Source: a virus (taxonomy: Duplodnaviria > Caudoviricetes). Taken from it: 60,606 nucleotides of DNA. Under the pieces are notes generated by a model. The model did not search any database and had not been told where the DNA came from. It was given only the letters and a program-made list of their open reading frames with translations. The DNA lies in IMG/VR virus record IMGVR_UViG_3300011435_000002, positions 1 through 60,606 of that record. The stretch is one strand, 5' to 3'. The first letter of the stretch is position 1, and every line of letters starts with the position of its first letter. This document shows positions 3,011 to 57,086 of the stretch, piece by piece. The position numbers and the translations under genes were made by a program.

Positions 3011-3063
3011 TATGATGTGTTTTCTGGATCTCATTGACAGGATGAACCTAGGATGGGACAATA
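3011..3063 (+). promoter_or_regulatory. Sigma70-like promoter, class A
   Basis: TTGACA 3034-3039, 17 bp spacer, GACAAT 3057-3062; 43 of 53 bp identical to 57034-57086. Confidence 0.75.
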
Positions 3064-5842: not shown

Positions 5843-6153
5843 AGGATGAAACGAGAAAGTGGATTGAGGCAGTTAGACAATCAGGAGCCTCAGCCCACCA
5901 TCAGACAATGGCAATCTACGAGAAGTTGGTTTCGGAGGAACACCTATTCGACAAAGCCTTCTTCGGACACAGGGCCACAAGGAAGCAGAGGAAGCGCCTG
6001 ACCCACCTGTGGAAGTTGTCTATGCAGTTGGGCGGGTTGAGCAAAACTCCAGTTGATGGGATTTCTGGATCTCCTATTACTCCGGAACCAGAGATGGGAC
6101 AATTGACGGGACGACGGACGGACCAGACAAACCCCAATCTGGAGGAAGTATGA
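5839..6153 (+). CDS. Hypothetical protein
   Basis: ATGA coupling on both sides. Confidence 0.6.
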   Translation: MKDETRKWIEAVRQSGASAHHQTMAIYEKLVSEEHLFDKAFFGHRATRKQRKRLTHLWKLSMQLGGLSKTPVDGISGSPITPEPEMGQLTGRRTDQTNPNLEEV

Positions 6154-9830: not shown

Positions 9831-10376
9831 GTGGCAACCGCAGCCAAGAAGGGTAAGAAGACGAAGGCTCCGAAGCCGGTAGTTGAAGAGGAAGAGGACG
9901 AAGACGAAGAGCTGGAGGAGGAAGAGGAGGCTCCCGCGCCCAAGGCCAAGAAGAAGATGTCAGCAGCCACCAAGGCAAAGCTGAAGGAATCGAAGGCCGC
10001 GAAGAAGGGCAAGAAGAAGAAGGAGCCCGAGGGAATGACCACCAAGGAGGTGGCAGCCCTTCTCGACATCACTCCGGTTCGTCTCCGCCGTATCCTCCGG
10101 TCGGATGACTACTCCAATGATGGTGAGTACACTCGGTACCGCCTCAGTGATGAGGACGTTGCTCGACTTCGTGCTTCTATCAAGGCTGGGGCAGGAACCT
10201 CAACCAAGAAGAAGGCCAAGGGTAAGAAGGCGAAGAAGGTCCAGGAAGCCGCTGAGGAAGTGGCTGATGAGATCGACGAGCTCGATGACCTCGAGGAAGA
10301 TGAGGACGAAGACGAGGAAGTCGAGGTTGACGACGAAGACGAAGAGGAGGATGAGGACGAGGAAGACGACGAGTAA
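9831..10376 (+). CDS. HTH DNA-binding protein with Lys-rich and poly-acidic tracts
   Basis: MTTKEVAALLDITPVRLRRILRS HTH-like core; AAGGAGG RBS; own promoter and terminator. Confidence 0.75.
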   Translation: MATAAKKGKKTKAPKPVVEEEEDEDEELEEEEEAPAPKAKKKMSAATKAKLKESKAAKKGKKKKEPEGMTTKEVAALLDITPVRLRRILRSDDYSNDGEYTRYRLSDEDVARLRASIKAGAGTSTKKKAKGKKAKKVQEAAEEVADEIDELDDLEEDEDEDEEVEVDDEDEEEDEDEEDDE

Positions 10377-42446: not shown

Positions 42447-42775
42447 TTACGATCACGAGCTCGGGCCTCCTGGAGTTCGTCGATCCGGTCGAGGATGCGC
42501 AGTGCCTCTTCGACTGATGAGATCACCCGGGCAACGCCGCCTGTTCGGGTGATCTCGCTTATCCTGTAGGCCTGGAGTTTAGTGGGCTTTCCTTCTTCAT
42601 CACGTTTGACTTCGAACGCTATAAAACGCGCACGGTAACAGCCGATGATGTCGGGTAATCCCTTCTTCACCATCGGACTACCGTGCGTCTTATACCAGAA
42701 ACCGCCCCTCTTATTCAGCGCTTTGAGAATTCGTTTCTTGACGCTGGATTCGAGGGGCGATTTCTTTGTGTTCAT
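42443..42775 (-). CDS. VRR-NUC domain nuclease
   Basis: ES....I, GLPDII...FIAFEVK, TKLQ. Confidence 0.88.
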   Translation of the reverse strand: MNTKKSPLESSVKKRILKALNKRGGFWYKTHGSPMVKKGLPDIIGCYRARFIAFEVKRDEEGKPTKLQAYRISEITRTGGVARVISSVEEALRILDRIDELQEARARDRN

Positions 42776-42776
42776 C

Positions 42777-43457
42777 TTACAGGTCGTCTACGTCGATTTC
42801 ATCAACGTCTTCGTCGTCCTCATCCTCGTCATCCTCGACGACGGGCTTCTTGGACTTCTTCTTTTTGGTCTTCTCCTTCTTGGCCTTCTTCTTGGGCTTC
42901 TCCTCTTCTTCCTCCTCTTCTTCGTCCTCATCTTCCTCCTCTTCTTCGTCTTCTTCCTCTTCGTCTTCTTCCTCGTCCTCATCGTCGTCGGCCTTGTTCT
43001 TCAGGTCGTCCCAATCCTTCTTGGAGAAGGTGGCCGAAACCTTCGATGAGAACTTGCCGCTACCCTCAGGATACTCCTCTTCCTCGGTAGTGATACCGAT
43101 GAGTCCCTGCTGCTTGACAATCTTGGCAAGCGGGATATCAACCGAGCTCTGCGGTACCTTGTTCTCTCCGAGCAGGTCCATGAGGAAGCCGCGAAGGCTC
43201 CACAGCGACTCCTTCGAGAGTCCCGTCCTGTGGAAGATCTTCTTGCCACGATACTTTTTAGGCTCCTGAATTACCAGGCCCCACAGGATATGCTTACGTG
43301 ACGGATCGTCCTTCTTCTTCCGGACCTCCCCACTCTGAACCTGTGCGAGGTAGTCGTCATCAGGGACGTGGGCTGATCGTCCACCCCCACCCCGTTCAAC
43401 TCCTGTGAAGTCGACCGTCAGAACCTTGGGCGTCTTGCCCTTCTGTGGCTTCGGCAT
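42777..43457 (-). CDS. Single-stranded DNA-binding protein-like (DUF669-like) with a long acidic/basic tail
   Basis: VDFTGVE...VPDDDY, SLWSLRGFL; next to AAA_24 and exonuclease genes. Confidence 0.65.
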   Translation of the reverse strand: MPKPQKGKTPKVLTVDFTGVERGGGGRSAHVPDDDYLAQVQSGEVRKKKDDPSRKHILWGLVIQEPKKYRGKKIFHRTGLSKESLWSLRGFLMDLLGENKVPQSSVDIPLAKIVKQQGLIGITTEEEEYPEGSGKFSSKVSATFSKKDWDDLKNKADDDEDEEEDEEEEDEEEEEDEDEEEEEEEEKPKKKAKKEKTKKKKSKKPVVEDDEDEDDEDVDEIDVDDL

Positions 43458-45254: not shown

Positions 45255-45283
45255 ATTATATTACAACCCATTTCACTTGTCAA
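45255..45283 (-). promoter_or_regulatory. Consensus promoter, class B
   Basis: TTGACA-17 bp-TATAAT with GTTGTAA upstream of the -10. Confidence 0.8.
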
Positions 45284-52191: not shown

Positions 52192-52221
52192 ATTATAAGA
52201 CAACCTGACACTGGATGTCAA
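52192..52221 (-). promoter_or_regulatory. Consensus promoter, class B, for the nucleotide-modification/Pol operon
   Basis: TTGACA-18 bp-TATAAT with GTTGTCT upstream of the -10; AGGAGG RBS downstream. Confidence 0.8.
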
Positions 52222-53690
52222 CGTTCCAGAATATGGGGGTCGTGCAAGATCGCTTTTGCTACCTTACCCTTCTGTTTGAGTACGCTGTAGACGATTGTGT
52301 CAATACTCCTGGGAACTACTAAGTGATAGTACATCACCTTCGTCCCCTTCTGACCCGGTCTGTGGAGACGATCCTGTGATTGCCAGTAGTGAAGTGCCGA
52401 GTAACTCATGCTGTAGTAGATGCAGATGTCAGCTGCGAATAGCTCGATCCCCTCTGAGCCTGCCTGCAGTTGGGCGATCATTACTTTGACGTTTGGATCG
52501 TTCTGAAACTCCTCAATGTTACTGTCCCTGCGAGGACCGGTAACACTTCCGGACAGTATCCTATATCCTACCTTCTGTTTCGTGAGTGCTGCTTCGAGTC
52601 GTTCGAGGTCCGCAATGAAGCGGACGAAGATAACAGCCTTGTGGCCTTCCTCAATGACCAGATCCGAAATGAGGTCCATGCAAGCTCGGAGCTTTCCATC
52701 GTCGAATACCCTGATTTTACCCTCGACATCTTTGACAAATCCCGATGTAATCTGCGATAGGCGGAGAAGCTTAGTGAGTACGATGGTAGCCGTTGCATGC
52801 GTCTCCTCGATTTCAATGATCATCTCCTTAGCCATCTGACGGTAGAGAGCTTCGGCCTTGGGAGAAAGTGTTACCGGAATGTCCAGGTACACTTTAGGAG
52901 GTAAATCAAAACAGTCCTTCTTCCGAACTCGATAGGACCACTTGCGAACTTTGGCAATTAGTTCATCGAGATGCCGGTATCCCTTCAATTGGAACTTGCC
53001 GAATCCTCCCCAGATTCCGTACTTCTTTTTGAATCTACCCCAGTCACTTCGGGAGTCACCGGTTCCAAAGATCTTCTCATCAACAACTCGGAACTGTCCG
53101 AAAGCATCGAGCGGGGCTTTAGTGATGGGAGTACCCGTGAGGATAAGCGTCTGGTCGACTTCTCTAGAGATGCGGTGGGCTGATCTAGATTGTTTGGAGT
53201 AAGCGGATTTGAGTCTATGAGATTCATCAAAGATAACAAGATCTGGTTGCCACTTGATAAGTAACCCCTCAACACTCTTTCCAGTGTCATCATCGTCACG
53301 CCAGATGCCTTCGTAGTTGATAATGATATACGTGAGTTTCGTCTCATCAGGATGGCGCAAGATTCGTGATAGTGTGTTAACTCGATGTTTCGTAGCGCCC
53401 TCAAGACGGAAAGCTCTGGAAGGGACGTTAGAATGTTGACGGATCTGACGTGGCCAAACTCCAAGCACCGAAAGTGGAGCGACAACCAACACTCGTCTGA
53501 CATCCCAGTTATAGAATCCGATCCCTGCCCAGTCAATTGCTACCTTCGTCTTTCCCGTGGACATCTCCATGAAGAGAGCTCCACGACCCTCTAGCTTGAG
53601 GAGCTTGTTGAGAGCTTTTTTCTGATGAGAGTACGGCTTGGTTTTATACGTATACCGAAGTCGTTTACTCGGAGTTAGAGTAAGGCTCAA
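52218..53690 (-). CDS. SNF2-family helicase
   Basis: MSTGKT, NYE, DESH, LTGTP, QSQDRLHRPGQ. Confidence 0.92.
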   Translation of the reverse strand: MSLTLTPSKRLRYTYKTKPYSHQKKALNKLLKLEGRGALFMEMSTGKTKVAIDWAGIGFYNWDVRRVLVVAPLSVLGVWPRQIRQHSNVPSRAFRLEGATKHRVNTLSRILRHPDETKLTYIIINYEGIWRDDDDTGKSVEGLLIKWQPDLVIFDESHRLKSAYSKQSRSAHRISREVDQTLILTGTPITKAPLDAFGQFRVVDEKIFGTGDSRSDWGRFKKKYGIWGGFGKFQLKGYRHLDELIAKVRKWSYRVRKKDCFDLPPKVYLDIPVTLSPKAEALYRQMAKEMIIEIEETHATATIVLTKLLRLSQITSGFVKDVEGKIRVFDDGKLRACMDLISDLVIEEGHKAVIFVRFIADLERLEAALTKQKVGYRILSGSVTGPRRDSNIEEFQNDPNVKVMIAQLQAGSEGIELFAADICIYYSMSYSALHYWQSQDRLHRPGQKGTKVMYYHLVVPRSIDTIVYSVLKQKGKVAKAILHDPHILER

Positions 53691-53880
53691 GTTCTTCGTC
53701 CGTCAGCAGGTTCCTACCACAGTAGGGGTTACCAAGCCAATCAACAGTAGCTGTGTGCATCCACCTACGTTCGTCGCCCTCTTCTCCTTTACCCCATGTT
53801 TTGATGCCTTCAGTACGTTCCTTAACTGGAATCCAACAGTGGGTGCAGACACTAACGCCTTCGGATGGCTCCTCGGACAT
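53665..53880 (-). CDS. Small Cys/His hypothetical protein
   Basis: CTHC...W.H...C; GGAGG RBS. Confidence 0.55.
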   Translation of the reverse strand: MSEEPSEGVSVCTHCWIPVKERTEGIKTWGKGEEGDERRWMHTATVDWLGNPYCGRNLLTDEELEPYSNSE

Positions 53881-54343
53881 CTCTCTTTCCTCCTTTCTTC
53901 TTCTGAGTCGCTTTAGCTTGTGCTCTCATCTCGTGTTCAATCTCATACCTCATGACGAGTTCTGGGTTATACTTACGCACGTATGCGTCCTTTACGCTGA
54001 TGCCACAGCCAGAGCACCGCATATAGATGAGCAGAGGTGAAGTACCTAAACCCCTTTCTTCGAACTCTCTCCACTTGATGCAGTAAGGACACCACATCAA
54101 CCCCCGTCTATCTGGGATTAGCTTCTTCAAAGGTGGTGGAAATGCCCTACTCATCGAAATGATGTCAACTACAGAAATGCCGCGGCGTTTGAGTTGTTTC
54201 CCAAACTCCACGGCCTTAGTCGGTCGTTCCCCATGAAACTGCTTGAAGAGAAGCCTACCATCCTCCGGCGATCGCCACTGGACTTTCCATTGGAATCTGA
54301 GTTTAGCTAACGACTCCTGCGTGAAAATTGGGCGTTCAAGCAT
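53852..54343 (-). CDS. Basic Zn-ribbon protein, first ORF after the structured RNA
   Basis: WCPYC...RCSGC; AAAGGAGAGG RBS. Confidence 0.7.
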   Translation of the reverse strand: MLERPIFTQESLAKLRFQWKVQWRSPEDGRLLFKQFHGERPTKAVEFGKQLKRRGISVVDIISMSRAFPPPLKKLIPDRRGLMWCPYCIKWREFEERGLGTSPLLIYMRCSGCGISVKDAYVRKYNPELVMRYEIEHEMRAQAKATQKKKGGKRDVRGAIRRR

Positions 54344-54370
54344 TCCTCTCCTTTCCTCGGGTGTGTGCAG

Positions 54371-54687
54371 AGCCAGTGAGTGGCCTCGTTAAATCACTCC
54401 TTCGTATCCCACTAGAGGAACTCTACATCCAAGAGGTGCACGCTCCAGTTGTAGACTTCGCTGGCTCTCGGGAAAAGTGAACAACCGCTTTGGTGTCTGC
54501 CATAGCCAAGGATACGATCGTACGGTCCCGATCCGTCCAAGTGACAGTTCCCTAGTTCACTTCTCCCGAGAGGAGAGCTGAAACGCGGTAGGGGGGATAC
54601 TTACGCTTCAGCTCTCCTGTGGTCAGACGAGGGGCTGGCCCAATCAACCCGTTCACCGATCCCCGAGTATCGGAGTCGTCTGTCCAC
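54371..54687 (-). ncRNA. Predicted four-domain structured RNA (5' leader or sRNA), family not recognised
   Basis: Four abutting closing stems; a G-U wobble in the longest stem favours the - strand; begins at the predicted TSS of the leftward promoter; no ORF in the track. Confidence 0.7.
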
Positions 54688-54789
54688 CTGTATATATTAG
54701 GACATCTGAGTTCTTTTGTCAAGGCCCAAAATCTTAGGTAGGTTCCTGATGTTTGACAGGTGATCCAAGTTGTCCTAATATATACAGGT
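54686..54789. promoter_or_regulatory. Divergent promoter pair with a perfect 19-bp inverted repeat
   Basis: Both are TTGACA-17-TAATAT; tgtcctaatatatacaggt at 54771-54789 and its reverse complement at 54686-54704. Confidence 0.85.
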
Positions 54790-54833
54790 TGACCACCCGG
54801 TCTATTGCGTCGCGCATAAGGGAGAATGAATAA

Positions 54834-55046
54834 GTGGCAAATCTCCTATCAGCGAGGGAGGCAGGTGAGGCACTTGACCTAACCCATCTTGAGGTCATTC
54901 GTAGAATACGAAGGGGTCAAATCAGAGCAAAGAAGGTGGGTTGGTTTTGGCTTGTGAATACGGAAGAAGTAAACCGAGTGAGGAAGAAGCGGTGGTACCT
55001 CGGGCTGATGGAGAAAAGACGTAGGAGGGGAACAGCCGAGGAATAA
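54834..55046 (+). CDS. Excisionase/HTH_17-like DNA-binding protein
   Basis: LLSAREAGEALDL...IRRGQIRAKKVG..W.V. Confidence 0.8.
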   Translation: MANLLSAREAGEALDLTHLEVIRRIRRGQIRAKKVGWFWLVNTEEVNRVRKKRWYLGLMEKRRRRGTAEE

Positions 55047-55052
55047 CCACAA

Positions 55053-57026
55053 ATGGCAAGAACGGCTCATGAATTTCTTGCCGCTGTTTGGGGTAAACGC
55101 CAAGGTTTTGTCTTTCTTCCGTTCAAAGATTTGGATAGAGAATGGCACGAGACAGCCGGTGTTCCATTCGACGGCAAAGGATCCTCGATCCCCGCAGTAG
55201 AGGAGATGAAGGCCGACCTATACTTCTGTCCGGTAGTCTTCGACCAACCACGCAGAAAGAAAGAGTTCGCCCAGGACACCAACCTCCTGTGGGCTGACCT
55301 CGATCCAGTCCACCCCGACAGCTGCAGGATCAAGCCGTCAATTGCATGGGAAAGTTCGCCCGGCAGATACCACGCACTGTGGATACTGAACCGGGACATT
55401 CCTGCAGAAAAGGCAGCTCAACTCTCGAAGCGAATTGCTTACGCAGATGGGGGTGACAAGGGTGGTTGGGATGTTACACAAGTTCTACGAATCCCTGGTA
55501 CGCGCAACTATAAGTATGAGTCCCGGCCTCGTGTTAAGCTTCTATGGTTGGAAAGAAAGGCTTACTCGACAGGGGAAATCAAAGCTGCTTACCCACGACT
55601 TAACGGAACCTCTGACCATGAACCAGCTCTTGGAGATTGGCCAGCTATTCCCGAAGCTACCATCCAATCCACTATCGCCGGACTATCTATCGGTTTACGG
55701 AAACGGATTACTCGAGATTCCTCTGGAGCCGATCGATCCCGAGAGCTACAAATTCTGGCGAGGGATCTACTCCGCAAAGACGTACAACCAGAGGTGGTTG
55801 CACACATTCTTAGAAGGTCGTCCTTCAACAAGTTCGCGGGTCGTCCCACTGAGGCACAAGAATTACTCAAGCAAGTCGCTGATGCACAAACGGCGGTCGC
55901 TGCTACTCCAAAGAAGAAGAGCTCGGACATCGGGCGCCATGCCGGGATTGCGGGGGCGAAGCCCTCTGATGATGACGAAACAGTTGAACAGATGGAAGTC
56001 CATAAGTGGGGTGACTTCCTTTCCATTCCCACACATCTACGTTGGCTTGTAGACGAAAGTTGGGTTGATAACAGTGTCGGCTTTATCTCAGGCCGCTCAA
56101 AGTCTTACAAAACTTGGATTGCGCTTGATATGGCACTCAGCCTGGTGTCCGGGAAACCATTCCTTGGCCGTTACCCTGTCAGGAGAAGTGGTCCTGTACT
56201 GTTGGTCCAAGAAGAAGACCCAGCTCCTGTCTTACAAGAACGTCTTCGACTGATCGGTAAATCAAAGGACATGTTACCTGAGGCAACCTTTCTCCCCAAC
56301 GGTATCATTCATGTCGAGTATCCCCAGTATCCTCTCCACATCATTAACTTGCAGGGCTTCACACTTGGCAGTGACGAGAAGATTGACCAGGTACGTCGTC
56401 TCATTGCTGAGATAAATCCAGTTGCTGTCATCCTCGACCCGTTGATTGTCATGCTCGCGGGCACAGGGGCGGATGAGAATCGTGCGACAGAAATTTCCCT
56501 CATTCTTCAGGCGGTGAAGATGTGGCGCGAGGAATTTGGCTGCTCGGTGATTATCGTCCATCACTGGAACAAAGCGAAGAACGAAGACGAACAGCGATTC
56601 GGAGAGCACATGTATGGTTCGTTTGTGTTCCATGCATGGTTGGAGAGTGCTCTGCATGTGATGCCGGTCATCGAGGAAGGACAGGAGAAGATCGACACCG
56701 TTGTGGTCGAGAGAGAATTCAAAGCCGCCCCATCTGGCCGGAGTTTGAGACTCAAGTTTGCCATCGACTCGACGGCGGAATACACGTACGACGTTTTGTT
56801 CGAGAGCGACAAGAGTTTGAGTCCGATGGGCCAAGCAATTCTGGATTTGATAACGGAAGCTGGACCACAGGGAATGACGACGCCTGAGGTAGTGAACGTG
56901 ACAGGGCACGCACGACCCAAGGTTCAGGAACAGTTGAAGAAGATGGTAAGAAACAAGCAGGTCAAGGTACTTGAGAAGGGTGGTGGCCGAGGTAAATCCA
57001 CACGTTATGGAGTCATCGAGGAGTAG
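55053..57026 (+). CDS. Primase-helicase (RepB-like primase + AAA_25 + C-terminal wHTH)
   Basis: LWADLD, ESSPGRYHALW, QVLRIPGTRN, DRS; GRSKSYKT, QEED, ILDPL, IVHHWNK. Confidence 0.88.
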   Translation: MARTAHEFLAAVWGKRQGFVFLPFKDLDREWHETAGVPFDGKGSSIPAVEEMKADLYFCPVVFDQPRRKKEFAQDTNLLWADLDPVHPDSCRIKPSIAWESSPGRYHALWILNRDIPAEKAAQLSKRIAYADGGDKGGWDVTQVLRIPGTRNYKYESRPRVKLLWLERKAYSTGEIKAAYPRLNGTSDHEPALGDWPAIPEATIQSTIAGLSIGLRKRITRDSSGADRSRELQILARDLLRKDVQPEVVAHILRRSSFNKFAGRPTEAQELLKQVADAQTAVAATPKKKSSDIGRHAGIAGAKPSDDDETVEQMEVHKWGDFLSIPTHLRWLVDESWVDNSVGFISGRSKSYKTWIALDMALSLVSGKPFLGRYPVRRSGPVLLVQEEDPAPVLQERLRLIGKSKDMLPEATFLPNGIIHVEYPQYPLHIINLQGFTLGSDEKIDQVRRLIAEINPVAVILDPLIVMLAGTGADENRATEISLILQAVKMWREEFGCSVIIVHHWNKAKNEDEQRFGEHMYGSFVFHAWLESALHVMPVIEEGQEKIDTVVVEREFKAAPSGRSLRLKFAIDSTAEYTYDVLFESDKSLSPMGQAILDLITEAGPQGMTTPEVVNVTGHARPKVQEQLKKMVRNKQVKVLEKGGGRGKSTRYGVIEE

Positions 57027-57033
57027 AACATCC

Positions 57034-57086
57034 TATGATGGGTTTTCAGGATCCCATTGACATGGGGAACCAGAAATGGGACAATA
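57034..57086 (+). promoter_or_regulatory. Sigma70-like promoter, class A
   Basis: TTGACA 57057-57062, 17 bp spacer, GACAAT; near-copy of 3011-3063. Confidence 0.75.

What the first reader, a model, noticed from the sequence alone, without database searches (positions are those of the whole stretch)
54371..54687. Unrecognised ~320-nt structured RNA with four abutting domains and alternative long-range pairings
Seen: four stem-closed domains tile this non-coding stretch with zero-nucleotide linkers. D1 54619-54687 (gtggtcagacga/tcgtctgtccac, 1 mismatch); D2 54571-54618 (perfect 12 bp aggagagctgaa/ttcagctctcct); D3 54467-54570 (16 bp, whose one mismatch is a G-U pair only on the - strand); D4 54371-54466 (agccag/ctggct). 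Each has internal helices. The leftward promoter (-10 at 54699-54694) predicts a start at about 54688, the first base of D1. A D4 segment (54402-54410; GGGAUACGA in the RNA) can pair with either the D2 loop (54594-54600, 7 bp) or a D3 segment (54510-54517, 8 bp), and these pairings are mutually exclusive. It does not resemble tRNA, tmRNA, RNase P, SRP or 6S by eye. Inference: a conformational switch, an antitermination leader for the 12 kb replication/modification block, or the RNA half of an RNP with the adjacent basic Zn-ribbon protein (53852-54343).
Basis: partly seen in the sequence, partly recalled or inferred. Interest (0 to 1): 0.82.

Follow-up and report, generated by a model that had tools for sequence, protein, structure and literature searches.

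The report
Modular hairpin leader RNA of phage
The stretch is a real, heavily folded, untranslated leader at the start of a phage's early replication messenger RNA, built from hairpin modules that distant relatives share and reshuffle; it matches no catalogued RNA family and its job is still unproven.

Summary
Window 54369-54687 (- strand) folds into four abutting stem-closed domains, far better than shuffles. It begins at the predicted start of a TTGACA-17-TAATAT promoter and ends 25 nt before the Zn-ribbon ORF 54343-53852. The window is a complete 60.6-kb metagenomic phage.

Rfam 15 gives no match for the window or for 13 related loci.

The domains recur in the same leader of distant relatives, with compensatory changes:
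- D2 in 7 loci: 9 of 13 pairs changed on both sides, 0 of 500 shuffles as good.
- D3 in 3 loci.
- D4 in 2 loci.
- D1 closing stem in 7 loci.

Relatives carry 0 to 5 modules. The four with none on this leader have a hairpin on the divergent primase leader. So 21 of 21 loci start at least one early transcript with a strong hairpin. A C-run in an apical loop, always in the transcript sense, is the commonest hallmark.

My reading is a cis-acting 5' leader that protects and tunes the early replication mRNA (about 0.4). The alternative pairings are at chance level. An obligate RNP with the Zn-ribbon protein is disfavoured. Antitermination is untested. No transcript data exist.

The parts
54694..54722 (-). 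Leftward early promoter (TTGACA, 17 nt, TAATAT). It belongs to an extended promoter motif conserved in relatives.
   Evidence: The same extended motif stands upstream of the Zn-ribbon gene in related loci.
54619..54687 (-). D1: 5'-terminal domain. Its closing stem starts at the predicted transcript start.
   Evidence: offset 6 nt after the -10 hexamer. The closing stem aligns in 7 loci, with changes on both sides in 5 of 10 pairs.
54571..54618 (-). D2: hairpin with a 16-bp stem and an apical loop that holds a run of six C (54591-54596).
   Evidence: Covariation in 7 loci. Model R1 scores 42.4 bits on - against 20.8 bits on +, and this is the only significant hit in the window. The C-run is unpaired in the MFE.
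54469..54570 (-). D3: 100-nt domain closed by a 16-bp stem with one G-U pair.
   Evidence: A 19-pair closing stem is shared with L004 and L035: the core is invariant and the flanks covary.
54369..54468 (-). D4: three-way-junction domain. Its terminal hairpin carries a 12-nt loop (54383-54394) identical in L004.
   Evidence: 4 of 9 closing pairs and 3 of 5 hairpin pairs changed on both sides. Model R2 finds only the window and L004.
54344..54368 (-). Short unstructured linker with the Shine-Dalgarno region of the Zn-ribbon gene.
53852..54343 (-). First gene of the operon: a 163-aa protein with a CxxC...CxxC Zn-ribbon, a long helix and an Arg-rich tail. Its function is unknown.
   Evidence: (pLDDT 87.5).
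54753..54833 (+). Mirror promoter (54753-54781) and the short, weakly structured rightward leader of the HTH/primase-helicase operon.
   Evidence: I12; z -0.03.

Best explanation
The stretch is the roughly 345-nt untranslated 5' leader of the leftward early (replication and nucleotide-metabolism) mRNA of a complete metagenomic phage. It is a string of four autonomous hairpin modules and it acts in cis.

Proposed working:
1. D1 buries the 5' end of the transcript in a helix. This blocks 5'-end-dependent decay by an RppH/RNase E type or RNase J type pathway.
2. The gap-free tiling with long closing stems (12-16 bp) leaves no single-stranded entry for endonucleases or Rho on a long ribosome-free leader.
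3. The exposed C-rich loop of D2 is a docking site for something G-rich. In the minimal relatives that is most simply the G-rich ribosome-binding site of the gene behind it. It would set how much of the first gene is made.

Shown: the fold, its conservation and covariation, its strand, its position at the promoter, and its modular gain and loss. Inferred: every functional step, since no transcript or decay data exist.
For: Position:
- In 17 of 21 distinct loci the left leader starts with a hairpin of 48-139 nt (dG -25 to -47 kcal/mol). In most it begins 1-7 nt after the -10 hexamer.
- The other 4 loci have such a hairpin on the right leader instead, so 21 of 21 have at least one.
- Adjacent domains are 0-4 nt apart in all but one junction.

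Selection for structure:
- 14 of 15 leaders fold with z at or below -3.3 against shuffles.
- D2 helix: 95.6% of cells paired against at most 44% when slid, 9 of 13 pairs changed on both sides, 0 of 500 shuffles as good.
- D4 and D3 also covary.

Strand:
- C-runs of 5 or more occur 12 times in 15 left leaders, against 2 G-runs and 1.3 expected. 10 of the 12 are unpaired.
- L137 and L139 add two more.
- The right-side hairpins of L016 and L032 carry the C-run in their own transcript's sense.
- Interior G-U pairs: 59 sense against 42 antisense overall, 8 against 2 in the window.
- R1 scores higher on the sense strand in every locus where both strands hit.

Modules work independently of place: D2 abuts the ribosome site in L024, L027 and L005, but sits 240 nt upstream in the window.

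Known biology (passages read in PMC3997798): a base-paired 5' end slows RNase E, and B. subtilis RppH needs at least 2 unpaired 5' nucleotides.

G-rich ribosome sites: GGGG lies within 22 nt of the start in 4 of 14 Zn-ribbon genes behind C-run leaders (read by eye). The background is 5 of 93 other ORFs.
Against: - No transcript, 5' end or half-life has been measured. No RNA run holds the sequence.
- Two other strong promoters of the same phage, at 52221 and 45283, have short unstructured leaders. A 5' hairpin is therefore not a general need of this phage's mRNAs.
- A stabiliser does not explain why the outer stems of D2 and D3 and the 12-nt D4 loop are conserved in sequence, or why every relative keeps at least one hairpin.
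- Loop to ribosome-site pairing is not specific. Cognate pairs average -12.6 kcal/mol against -11.6 for non-cognate (permutation p 0.08), and the window's own pair is among the weakest at -8.2.
- In the shortest leaders the 6-9-nt linker looks too short to reach the apical loop within one molecule (my estimate).
- The + strand of the window folds as well by z-score.
- Related loci are not independent samples.
Confidence: 0.4

Rival explanations
1. Protein-RNA control in the style of lambda N/nutL, HK022 put or Mu Com. The leader would be the RNA target of the Arg-tailed Zn-ribbon protein, or of RNA polymerase itself. It would give processive antitermination of the 10-12-kb operon, or autoregulation of the first gene.
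For: - The layout matches lambda pL: a strong early leftward promoter, a long and highly structured untranslated leader, then a small basic protein as first gene. Passage read in PMC5725501: nutL lies about 200 bp upstream of N, the sequence between is highly structured, and N with the Nus factors represses N translation.
- The protein is confidently folded (pLDDT 87.5) with a Zn-ribbon, a long helix and a disordered Arg-rich tail.
- The sequences of the outer stems and of the D4 loop are conserved, as expected of protein contacts.
- L006 and L009 have hairpins on both divergent leaders, as put has.
Against: - L003, L010, L016 and L032 keep the protein but have no hairpin on its leader.
- No boxA-like site lies in the leader: 12 matches in the whole window against 12.3 expected, none in the leader.
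- Terminator-like sites are not enriched in 42-58 kb.
- The protein matches no Pfam family, no solved structure and no named viral protein.
- The two hairpins of L006 and L009 are unlike each other.
Confidence: 0.17
2. A precursor of stable trans-acting small RNAs. Each stem-closed module would be cut out, for example by RNase III in its long closing stem as rRNAs are, and would act on its own. The C-rich loop would serve as a seed against G-rich ribosome-binding sites, or as a decoy for a host factor.
For: - Modules are autonomous, of variable number, independent of order, and found on either divergent early transcript.
- Closing stems are unusually long and perfect: 12-20 bp, against 8.9 +/- 1.4 bp in shuffles.
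- Every one of 21 loci keeps at least one hairpin.
- C-rich apical loops are the seed type of known regulatory RNAs such as 6C, RsaE and SprX. This is recalled; I saw only the search listing of PMC4005690.
Against: - No terminator or mapped processing site.
- No G-run target is evident at gene starts in the window.
- No expression data.
- No Rfam family is matched.
Confidence: 0.17
3. A DNA-level element: the replication origin or single-strand initiation hairpins for the adjacent RepB'-like primase-helicase. The hairpins would form in the non-template strand displaced by early transcription.
For: - It lies inside the replication module, next to a primase-helicase with RepB_primase and AAA_25 domains.
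- Cumulative GC skew has its minimum at 52-54 kb.
- At least one hairpin is kept beside the divergent promoters in all 21 loci, on either side.
- Both strands of the window fold well.
- IncQ RepB' starts on hairpin-bearing ssiA/ssiB (passages read in PMC8567376).
Against: - ssiA and ssiB are 40-nt sites with a 21-nt hairpin, one on each strand. Here there are four hairpins of 48-100 nt, all on one strand with no mirrored partner, and many relatives have a single hairpin.
- The leader has more G+C than its surroundings (56% against 52%) and is very stable. That is the opposite of an unwinding element.
- The hairpins start at the transcript start in most loci, which a DNA site has no need to do.
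- The helices covary instead of keeping iteron sequence.
- The skew minimum equally follows the switch of gene orientation.
Confidence: 0.1
4. A conformational switch or riboswitch that uses the mutually exclusive long-range pairings of 54402-54410 with the D2 loop or with D3.
For: The complementarities exist (7 and 8 bp), and the D4 segment and the D2 loop are partly unpaired in the ensemble (0.52 and 0.66).
Against: - Such 7-mer matches are expected by chance, 3.0 +/- 2.1 per shuffle.
- The D3 partner is mostly paired (unpaired probability 0.27).
- The homologous L004 segment has a different sequence, and I did not establish equivalent partners at matching places (read by eye; no count made).
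- The number of modules varies too freely among relatives for a fixed ligand-sensing architecture.
Confidence: 0.06

Closest known systems
Lambda pL-nutL-N leader (RNase III-sensitive structured leader before the N gene)
   Same: First gene of the leftward early operon. A leader of 200 nt or more that is untranslated and highly structured. A small basic protein lies downstream (PMC5725501, Discussion passage read).
   Different: No boxA-like site and no detectable homology of the protein. Here the structure starts at the very 5' end. Modules can sit on the other divergent transcript instead.
5'-terminal stem-loop mRNA stabilisers (ompA, papA and aprE leaders)
   Same: The 5' end is base-paired with about 0-2 free nucleotides. 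Base-paired 5' ends slow RNase E, and RppH needs unpaired 5' nucleotides (PMC3997798, passages and reference list read).
   Different: Those are single short hairpins. Here there are four abutting domains of 48-100 nt, with conserved loops and conserved outer stems.
RNase III processing stems of T7 early mRNA and of rRNA operons
   Same: Long closing helices bracket autonomous units with almost no linker (recalled knowledge; not read here).
   Different: No cleavage is shown, and no similarity of sequence.
C-rich-loop regulatory RNAs (actinobacterial 6C; staphylococcal RsaE, SprX and RNAIII)
   Same: A run of C in an apical loop, able to pair with G-rich ribosome-binding sites (recalled; only the listing of PMC4005690 was seen).
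   Different: Those are free-standing sRNAs with terminators. No Rfam model, 6C included, matches the window or 13 related loci.
HK022 put RNA
   Same: A cis-acting hairpin RNA downstream of divergent early promoters (recalled).
   Different: put is a conserved two-stem unit of about 70 nt on both operons. Here the number and side of the modules vary. I had no put model of my own and made no direct comparison.
IncQ ssiA/ssiB priming hairpins
   Same: Hairpins beside a RepB'-type primase (PMC8567376).
   Different: Size, number, strand arrangement and G+C content do not fit.
Large structured early leaders of phiEco32-like coliphages
   Same: Host-type early promoters feed a long folded non-coding leader that is absent from Rfam.
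   Different: Those carry boxA copies and are about 0.8-0.9 kb. Here there is no boxA and the leader is 0.32 kb. There is no sequence relation.

Membership tests
Any Rfam 15 family | Score at or above the family's gathering threshold | tested here: not met
   0 matches in the whole window. At E up to 10 in 54200-54900 there are only 6 sub-threshold rows, and the best two lie on the promoter palindrome. 0 matches at E up to 0.5 in 13 related loci.
Lambda-type nut site | A boxA element in the leader | tested here: not met
   The recalled rrn-type boxA consensus, allowing up to 3 mismatches, gives 12 matches in the window against 12.3 expected. None falls in 54344-54700.
Lambda-type nut site | A boxB hairpin bound by an N-like arginine-rich peptide | not testable with these tools
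   The protein has an Arg-rich C-terminal tail, but no binding test is possible.
Antitermination leader (any type) | Terminators downstream that must be read through | tested here: inconclusive
   Intrinsic-terminator-like sites: 14 found against 14.4 expected in 42-58 kb. Rho-dependent sites cannot be scanned.
5'-terminal stem-loop stabiliser | A base-paired 5' end with at most about 2 free nucleotides | tested here: inconclusive
   The stem starts 6 nt after the -10 hexamer in the window and 1-7 nt after it in most relatives. The start site is predicted, not measured.
5'-terminal stem-loop stabiliser | Lengthens mRNA half-life | not testable with these tools
   No RNA data.
IncQ ssiA/ssiB | Two 40-nt sites on opposite strands, each with a 21-nt hairpin | tested here: not met
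   Four hairpins of 48-100 nt on one strand, with no mirrored copy. Definition taken from PMC8567376.
Conformational switch | Alternative pairings above chance and conserved | tested here: not met
   7-mer complementarities are at the shuffle level. Only one other D4 sequence is available.
Obligate RNP with the adjacent protein | The RNA is present wherever the protein is | tested here: not met
   4 of 21 loci have the protein behind a 24-36-nt leader without a hairpin.
Conserved structured RNA (generic) | Covariation that keeps helices across homologues | tested here: met
   D2. D4. D3. D1 closing stem.

The most novel reading that the evidence does not exclude
The leader is not merely a leader. 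It is a cassette array of independent small structured RNAs, each closed by a long processing stem. They would be made at the very start of infection from either of the two divergent early promoters and released to act in trans. The C-run loop would serve as a seed or decoy against a G-rich host or phage target, for example ribosome-binding sites or a host defence or RNA-binding factor. This would explain why every relative keeps at least one module, why modules move between the two transcripts, and why the outer stems are long and conserved.
Probability: 0.15. Interest if true: 0.75.

Novelty: new member of a known kind. Interest (0 to 1): 0.5.

Why it matters
Structured leaders of phage early operons (lambda N leader, T7 early RNA, put) taught much about antitermination, RNase III and mRNA decay. 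All of them come from a few coliphages.

Here is an uncatalogued, covariation-supported family from uncultured soil, sediment and groundwater phages, and it has unusual properties:
- hairpin modules that are gained, lost and swapped between two divergent early transcripts;
- a strand-specific C-run loop;
- at least one module kept in every relative examined.

It gives defined RNA motifs (D2, the D3-D4 unit, the C-loop 5' hairpin) that can be added to RNA family libraries. It also gives a compact 0.45-kb promoter-leader fragment that can be tested in a reporter.

If the modules prove to be released trans-acting RNAs or protein decoys, it would be a new way for phages to deliver early regulators.

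Tried and rejected
Protein function. The Zn-ribbon protein has no Pfam family. It hits two weak PHROGs of unknown function and no solved structure by sequence. Foldseek against the PDB gave nothing at E up to 0.001. BFVD gave one unnamed match. The Atlas neighbours automatically named 'DNA-directed RNA polymerase' score 0.88, a lead only.

These include a 64%-identical homologue. They would add leaders for covariation tests.

Pattern scans of viral contigs.
- A 14-nt piece of the D4 loop region gave 79 stretches. Only L105, which is L004's own contig, was related.
- A D3-stem pattern gave 12 stretches. One was L004's contig and one an unrelated palindrome in L124; the rest were chance.

Other searches for relatives.
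- The genome-contig scan found only two distant Clostridia hits.
- Phage GenBank records gave no DNA or protein match.

Expression and variants.
- No RNA holder was listed.
- Contigs of 4 of 4 DNA runs laid on 53600-55100 were identical to the window where they covered it. No natural variants were available to test compensation.

Loop to ribosome-site co-evolution: not significant. G-run targets at gene starts in the window: none evident.

Alignments. MAFFT alignments of the divergent C-loop hairpins and of six D3-like domains were out of register and gave no usable consensus. An alignment of five whole group-A leaders also gave little.

The pdb_via_wide library was not available.

Rows dropped from the 21-locus table.
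- Duplicates or stretches identical in the part examined: L008, L028 and L136 (= L009); L011 and L033 (= L003); L023 (= L022); L025 and L135 (= L006); L038 and L040 (= L016); L105 and L138 (= L004); L134 (= L007); L140 (= L012); L141 (= L013).
- Loci with no recognisable promoter or cut by a contig end, most of them distant: L014, L015, L017-L020, L026, L030, L031, L036, L037, L039, L041, L121, L122, L142, L143.

Supplementary files of papers were not opened.

Full report
**What the window is.** The window is a complete virus record of 60,606 bp with 123-nt direct terminal repeats.

The finding lies between two mirror-image sigma70-type promoters and the first gene of the leftward block:
- The promoters are both TTGACA-17-TAATAT: 54722-54694 on the - strand and 54753-54781 on the + strand.
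- The first leftward gene is a 163-aa Zn-ribbon protein with an Arg-rich tail (54343-53852).
- Behind it come a small ORF, an SNF2-type helicase, a P-loop kinase, a dUTPase-like gene and a thymidylate-synthase-like gene.
- The rightward promoter drives a 70-aa HTH protein and a RepB'-like primase fused to an AAA_25 helicase.

| Measure | Observed | Shuffles |
|---|---|---|
| Energy, 357-nt stretch | -138.4 kcal/mol | -118.4 +/- 5.9; 0 of 100 as good |
| Energy, 319-nt core | -135.7 kcal/mol | -109.7 +/- 5.6; 0 of 200 as good |
| Longest helix | 16 bp | 8.9 +/- 1.4; 0 of 200 as long |
| At least 4 domains with at most 2 exterior unpaired nt | yes | 1 of 200 |

The opposite strand folds about as well (z -3.53), so the strand has to be decided by other evidence. 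Rfam 15 gives nothing at gathering thresholds for the whole window. In permissive mode it gives only sub-threshold rows, the best two on the promoter palindrome.

**Relatives.**
- The Zn-ribbon protein has 19 homologues at 45-99% identity, all unnamed.
- With their alignment I fetched 17 viral, 21 metagenomic and 2 genomic loci.
- With the primase I fetched 10 more.
- After removing duplicates and loci without a recognisable promoter (listed under Tried and rejected), 20 distinct relatives plus the window remain.
- All share an extended version of the promoter, in the same divergent arrangement.

**The leaders compared.** The distance from the -10 hexamer to the Zn-ribbon start codon ranges from 24 to 533 nt. 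Wherever it exceeds about 70 nt it is filled with abutting stem-closed hairpins, with linkers of 0-4 nt in all but one junction. 14 of 15 such leaders fold with z at or below -3.3.

The window's domains have recognisable homologues:
- **D2.** It aligns with the second hairpin of L024, L027, L021, L005, L022 and L013 as a 13-bp helix. 95.6% of cells are paired, against at most 44% when the partner is slid. 9 pairs changed on both sides, and 0 of 500 shuffles were as good. A covariance model of D2 hits only these leaders. It is single-copy in the phage, and scores 42.4 bits on the - strand against 20.8 on the + strand.
- **D3.** It shares a 19-pair closing stem with L004 and L035. The core is invariant and the flanks covary, with G-U pairs on the sense strand.
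- **D4.** It is shared with L004 only. The closing stem has 4 of 9 pairs changed on both sides, and the terminal hairpin 3 of 5. The 12-nt loop is identical in both.
- **D1.** Its closing stem aligns in 7 loci.

The leader is therefore a real, conserved RNA-like structure built from modules that are combined differently in different phages.

**Strand and level.**
- A run of five or more C occurs once in 12 of 15 left leaders, against 2 G-runs and 1.3 expected. It is unpaired in 10 of the 12. L137 and L139 add two more.
- The four relatives whose Zn-ribbon leader is short (L003, L010, L016, L032) carry a strong hairpin at the start of the opposite, primase-side leader.
- In L016 and L032 that hairpin again has its C-run in the sense of its own transcript.
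- So 21 of 21 loci start at least one early transcript with a hairpin of dG -25 kcal/mol or stronger, and the asymmetric hallmark follows the direction of transcription.
- Interior G-U pairs lean the same way (59 against 42; window 8 against 2). The sense fold is the more stable in 11 of 15 loci.
- In most loci the first stem starts 1-7 nt after the -10 hexamer, that is, at the expected transcript start.

Together these point to a function in the RNA. Sequence alone cannot exclude the displaced non-template DNA strand.

**What it probably does.** I commit, at about 0.4, to a cis-acting leader.
- A base-paired 5' end protects against 5'-end-dependent decay (passages in PMC3997798).
- Gap-free tiling leaves no entry for endonucleases or Rho on a ribosome-free stretch.
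- The C-rich loop docks something G-rich.

In the minimal relatives the ribosome-binding sites are unusually G-rich. GGGG occurs in 4 of 14 by eye, against 5 of 93 other ORFs. L004 and L009 show -21 kcal/mol loop to site duplexes. Against this:
- Cognate pairs are not significantly better than non-cognate ones (p 0.08).
- The window's own pair is weak (-8.2).
- Short linkers make an intramolecular contact sterically doubtful.

A plain stabiliser also does not explain the sequence-conserved outer stems, the invariant D4 loop, or why other strong promoters of this phage have short plain leaders.

**Rivals.**
1. *Protein-RNA control, as in lambda N/nutL.* The parallel in layout is close (PMC5725501). 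But there is no boxA in the leader, no excess of terminators, and four relatives have the protein without the leader hairpin.
2. *A precursor of trans-acting small RNAs cut out at the long closing stems.* This fits the modularity, the placement on either side and the universal retention. It has no direct support.
3. *An origin or ssi element for the RepB'-like primase.* The location and the GC-skew minimum fit. The hairpins do not resemble ssiA/ssiB, the region is richer in G+C than its surroundings, and the helices covary.

**Limits.**
- No RNA data exist.
- DNA runs showed no variants.
- D3 and D4 rest on 3 and 2 sequences.
- The relatives are not independent samples.
- Transcript starts are predicted from promoter consensus only.
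- The host is unknown. The holders are freshwater-sediment and groundwater metagenomes.

**Verdict.** This is an uncatalogued, covariation-supported, modular leader RNA family of a group of uncultured phages. It is a new member of the known kind 'structured phage early leaders', with an unresolved and possibly more interesting function.

Noticed in passing
window 54682-54722 and 54753-54793: The two divergent promoters form a 41-nt inverted repeat, 80% complementary, with 30 nt between the arms. This palindrome produced spurious microRNA-precursor rows in the permissive Rfam search (E 4e-7, below gathering). A short inverted repeat flanking the -10/+1 region looks like an operator that overlaps the first bases of D1.
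   Followed up: partly
related loci, - strand upstream of the Zn-ribbon promoter (e.g. L004, L012, L013, L029): The rightward (HTH/primase) leaders share a conserved stretch of about 18 nt just before the ribosome-binding site. They come in two length classes: about 50 nt, weakly structured, and 83-101 nt with a strong 5' hairpin.
   Followed up: partly
window 3011-3063, 6052-6104, 57034-57086: Three copies of a 53-nt direct repeat (66-81% identity). It contains a TTGACA box with a TG-extended -10-like element (57057-57085). This may be a second promoter class of the phage.
   Followed up: no
window 52192-52221 and 45255-45283 (- strand): Two perfect or near-perfect sigma70 promoters inside the leftward block, with very short unstructured leaders. 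They contrast with the 345-nt leader studied here.
   Followed up: partly
window 53852-54343 (-): The Zn-ribbon protein family has a confident predicted fold (pLDDT 87.5): an N-terminal beta-beta-alpha-beta unit, a Zn-ribbon, a 30-residue helix and an Arg-rich tail. It has no Pfam family and no named structural neighbour. In the loci inspected (the window and L003) it stands first, before a small ORF and a long ORF that Pfam identifies as an SNF2-type helicase in the window only.
   Followed up: partly
window 9880-10375 and 42770-43010: Long acidic (Asp/Glu codon) low-complexity repeats on opposite strands dominate the repeat output.
   Followed up: no
L124 3385-3590: An unrelated GC-rich viral contig carries a palindrome of about 200 nt whose inner arms happen to share the D3 stem core. 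Its gene context is different, and I take it as coincidence.
   Followed up: partly
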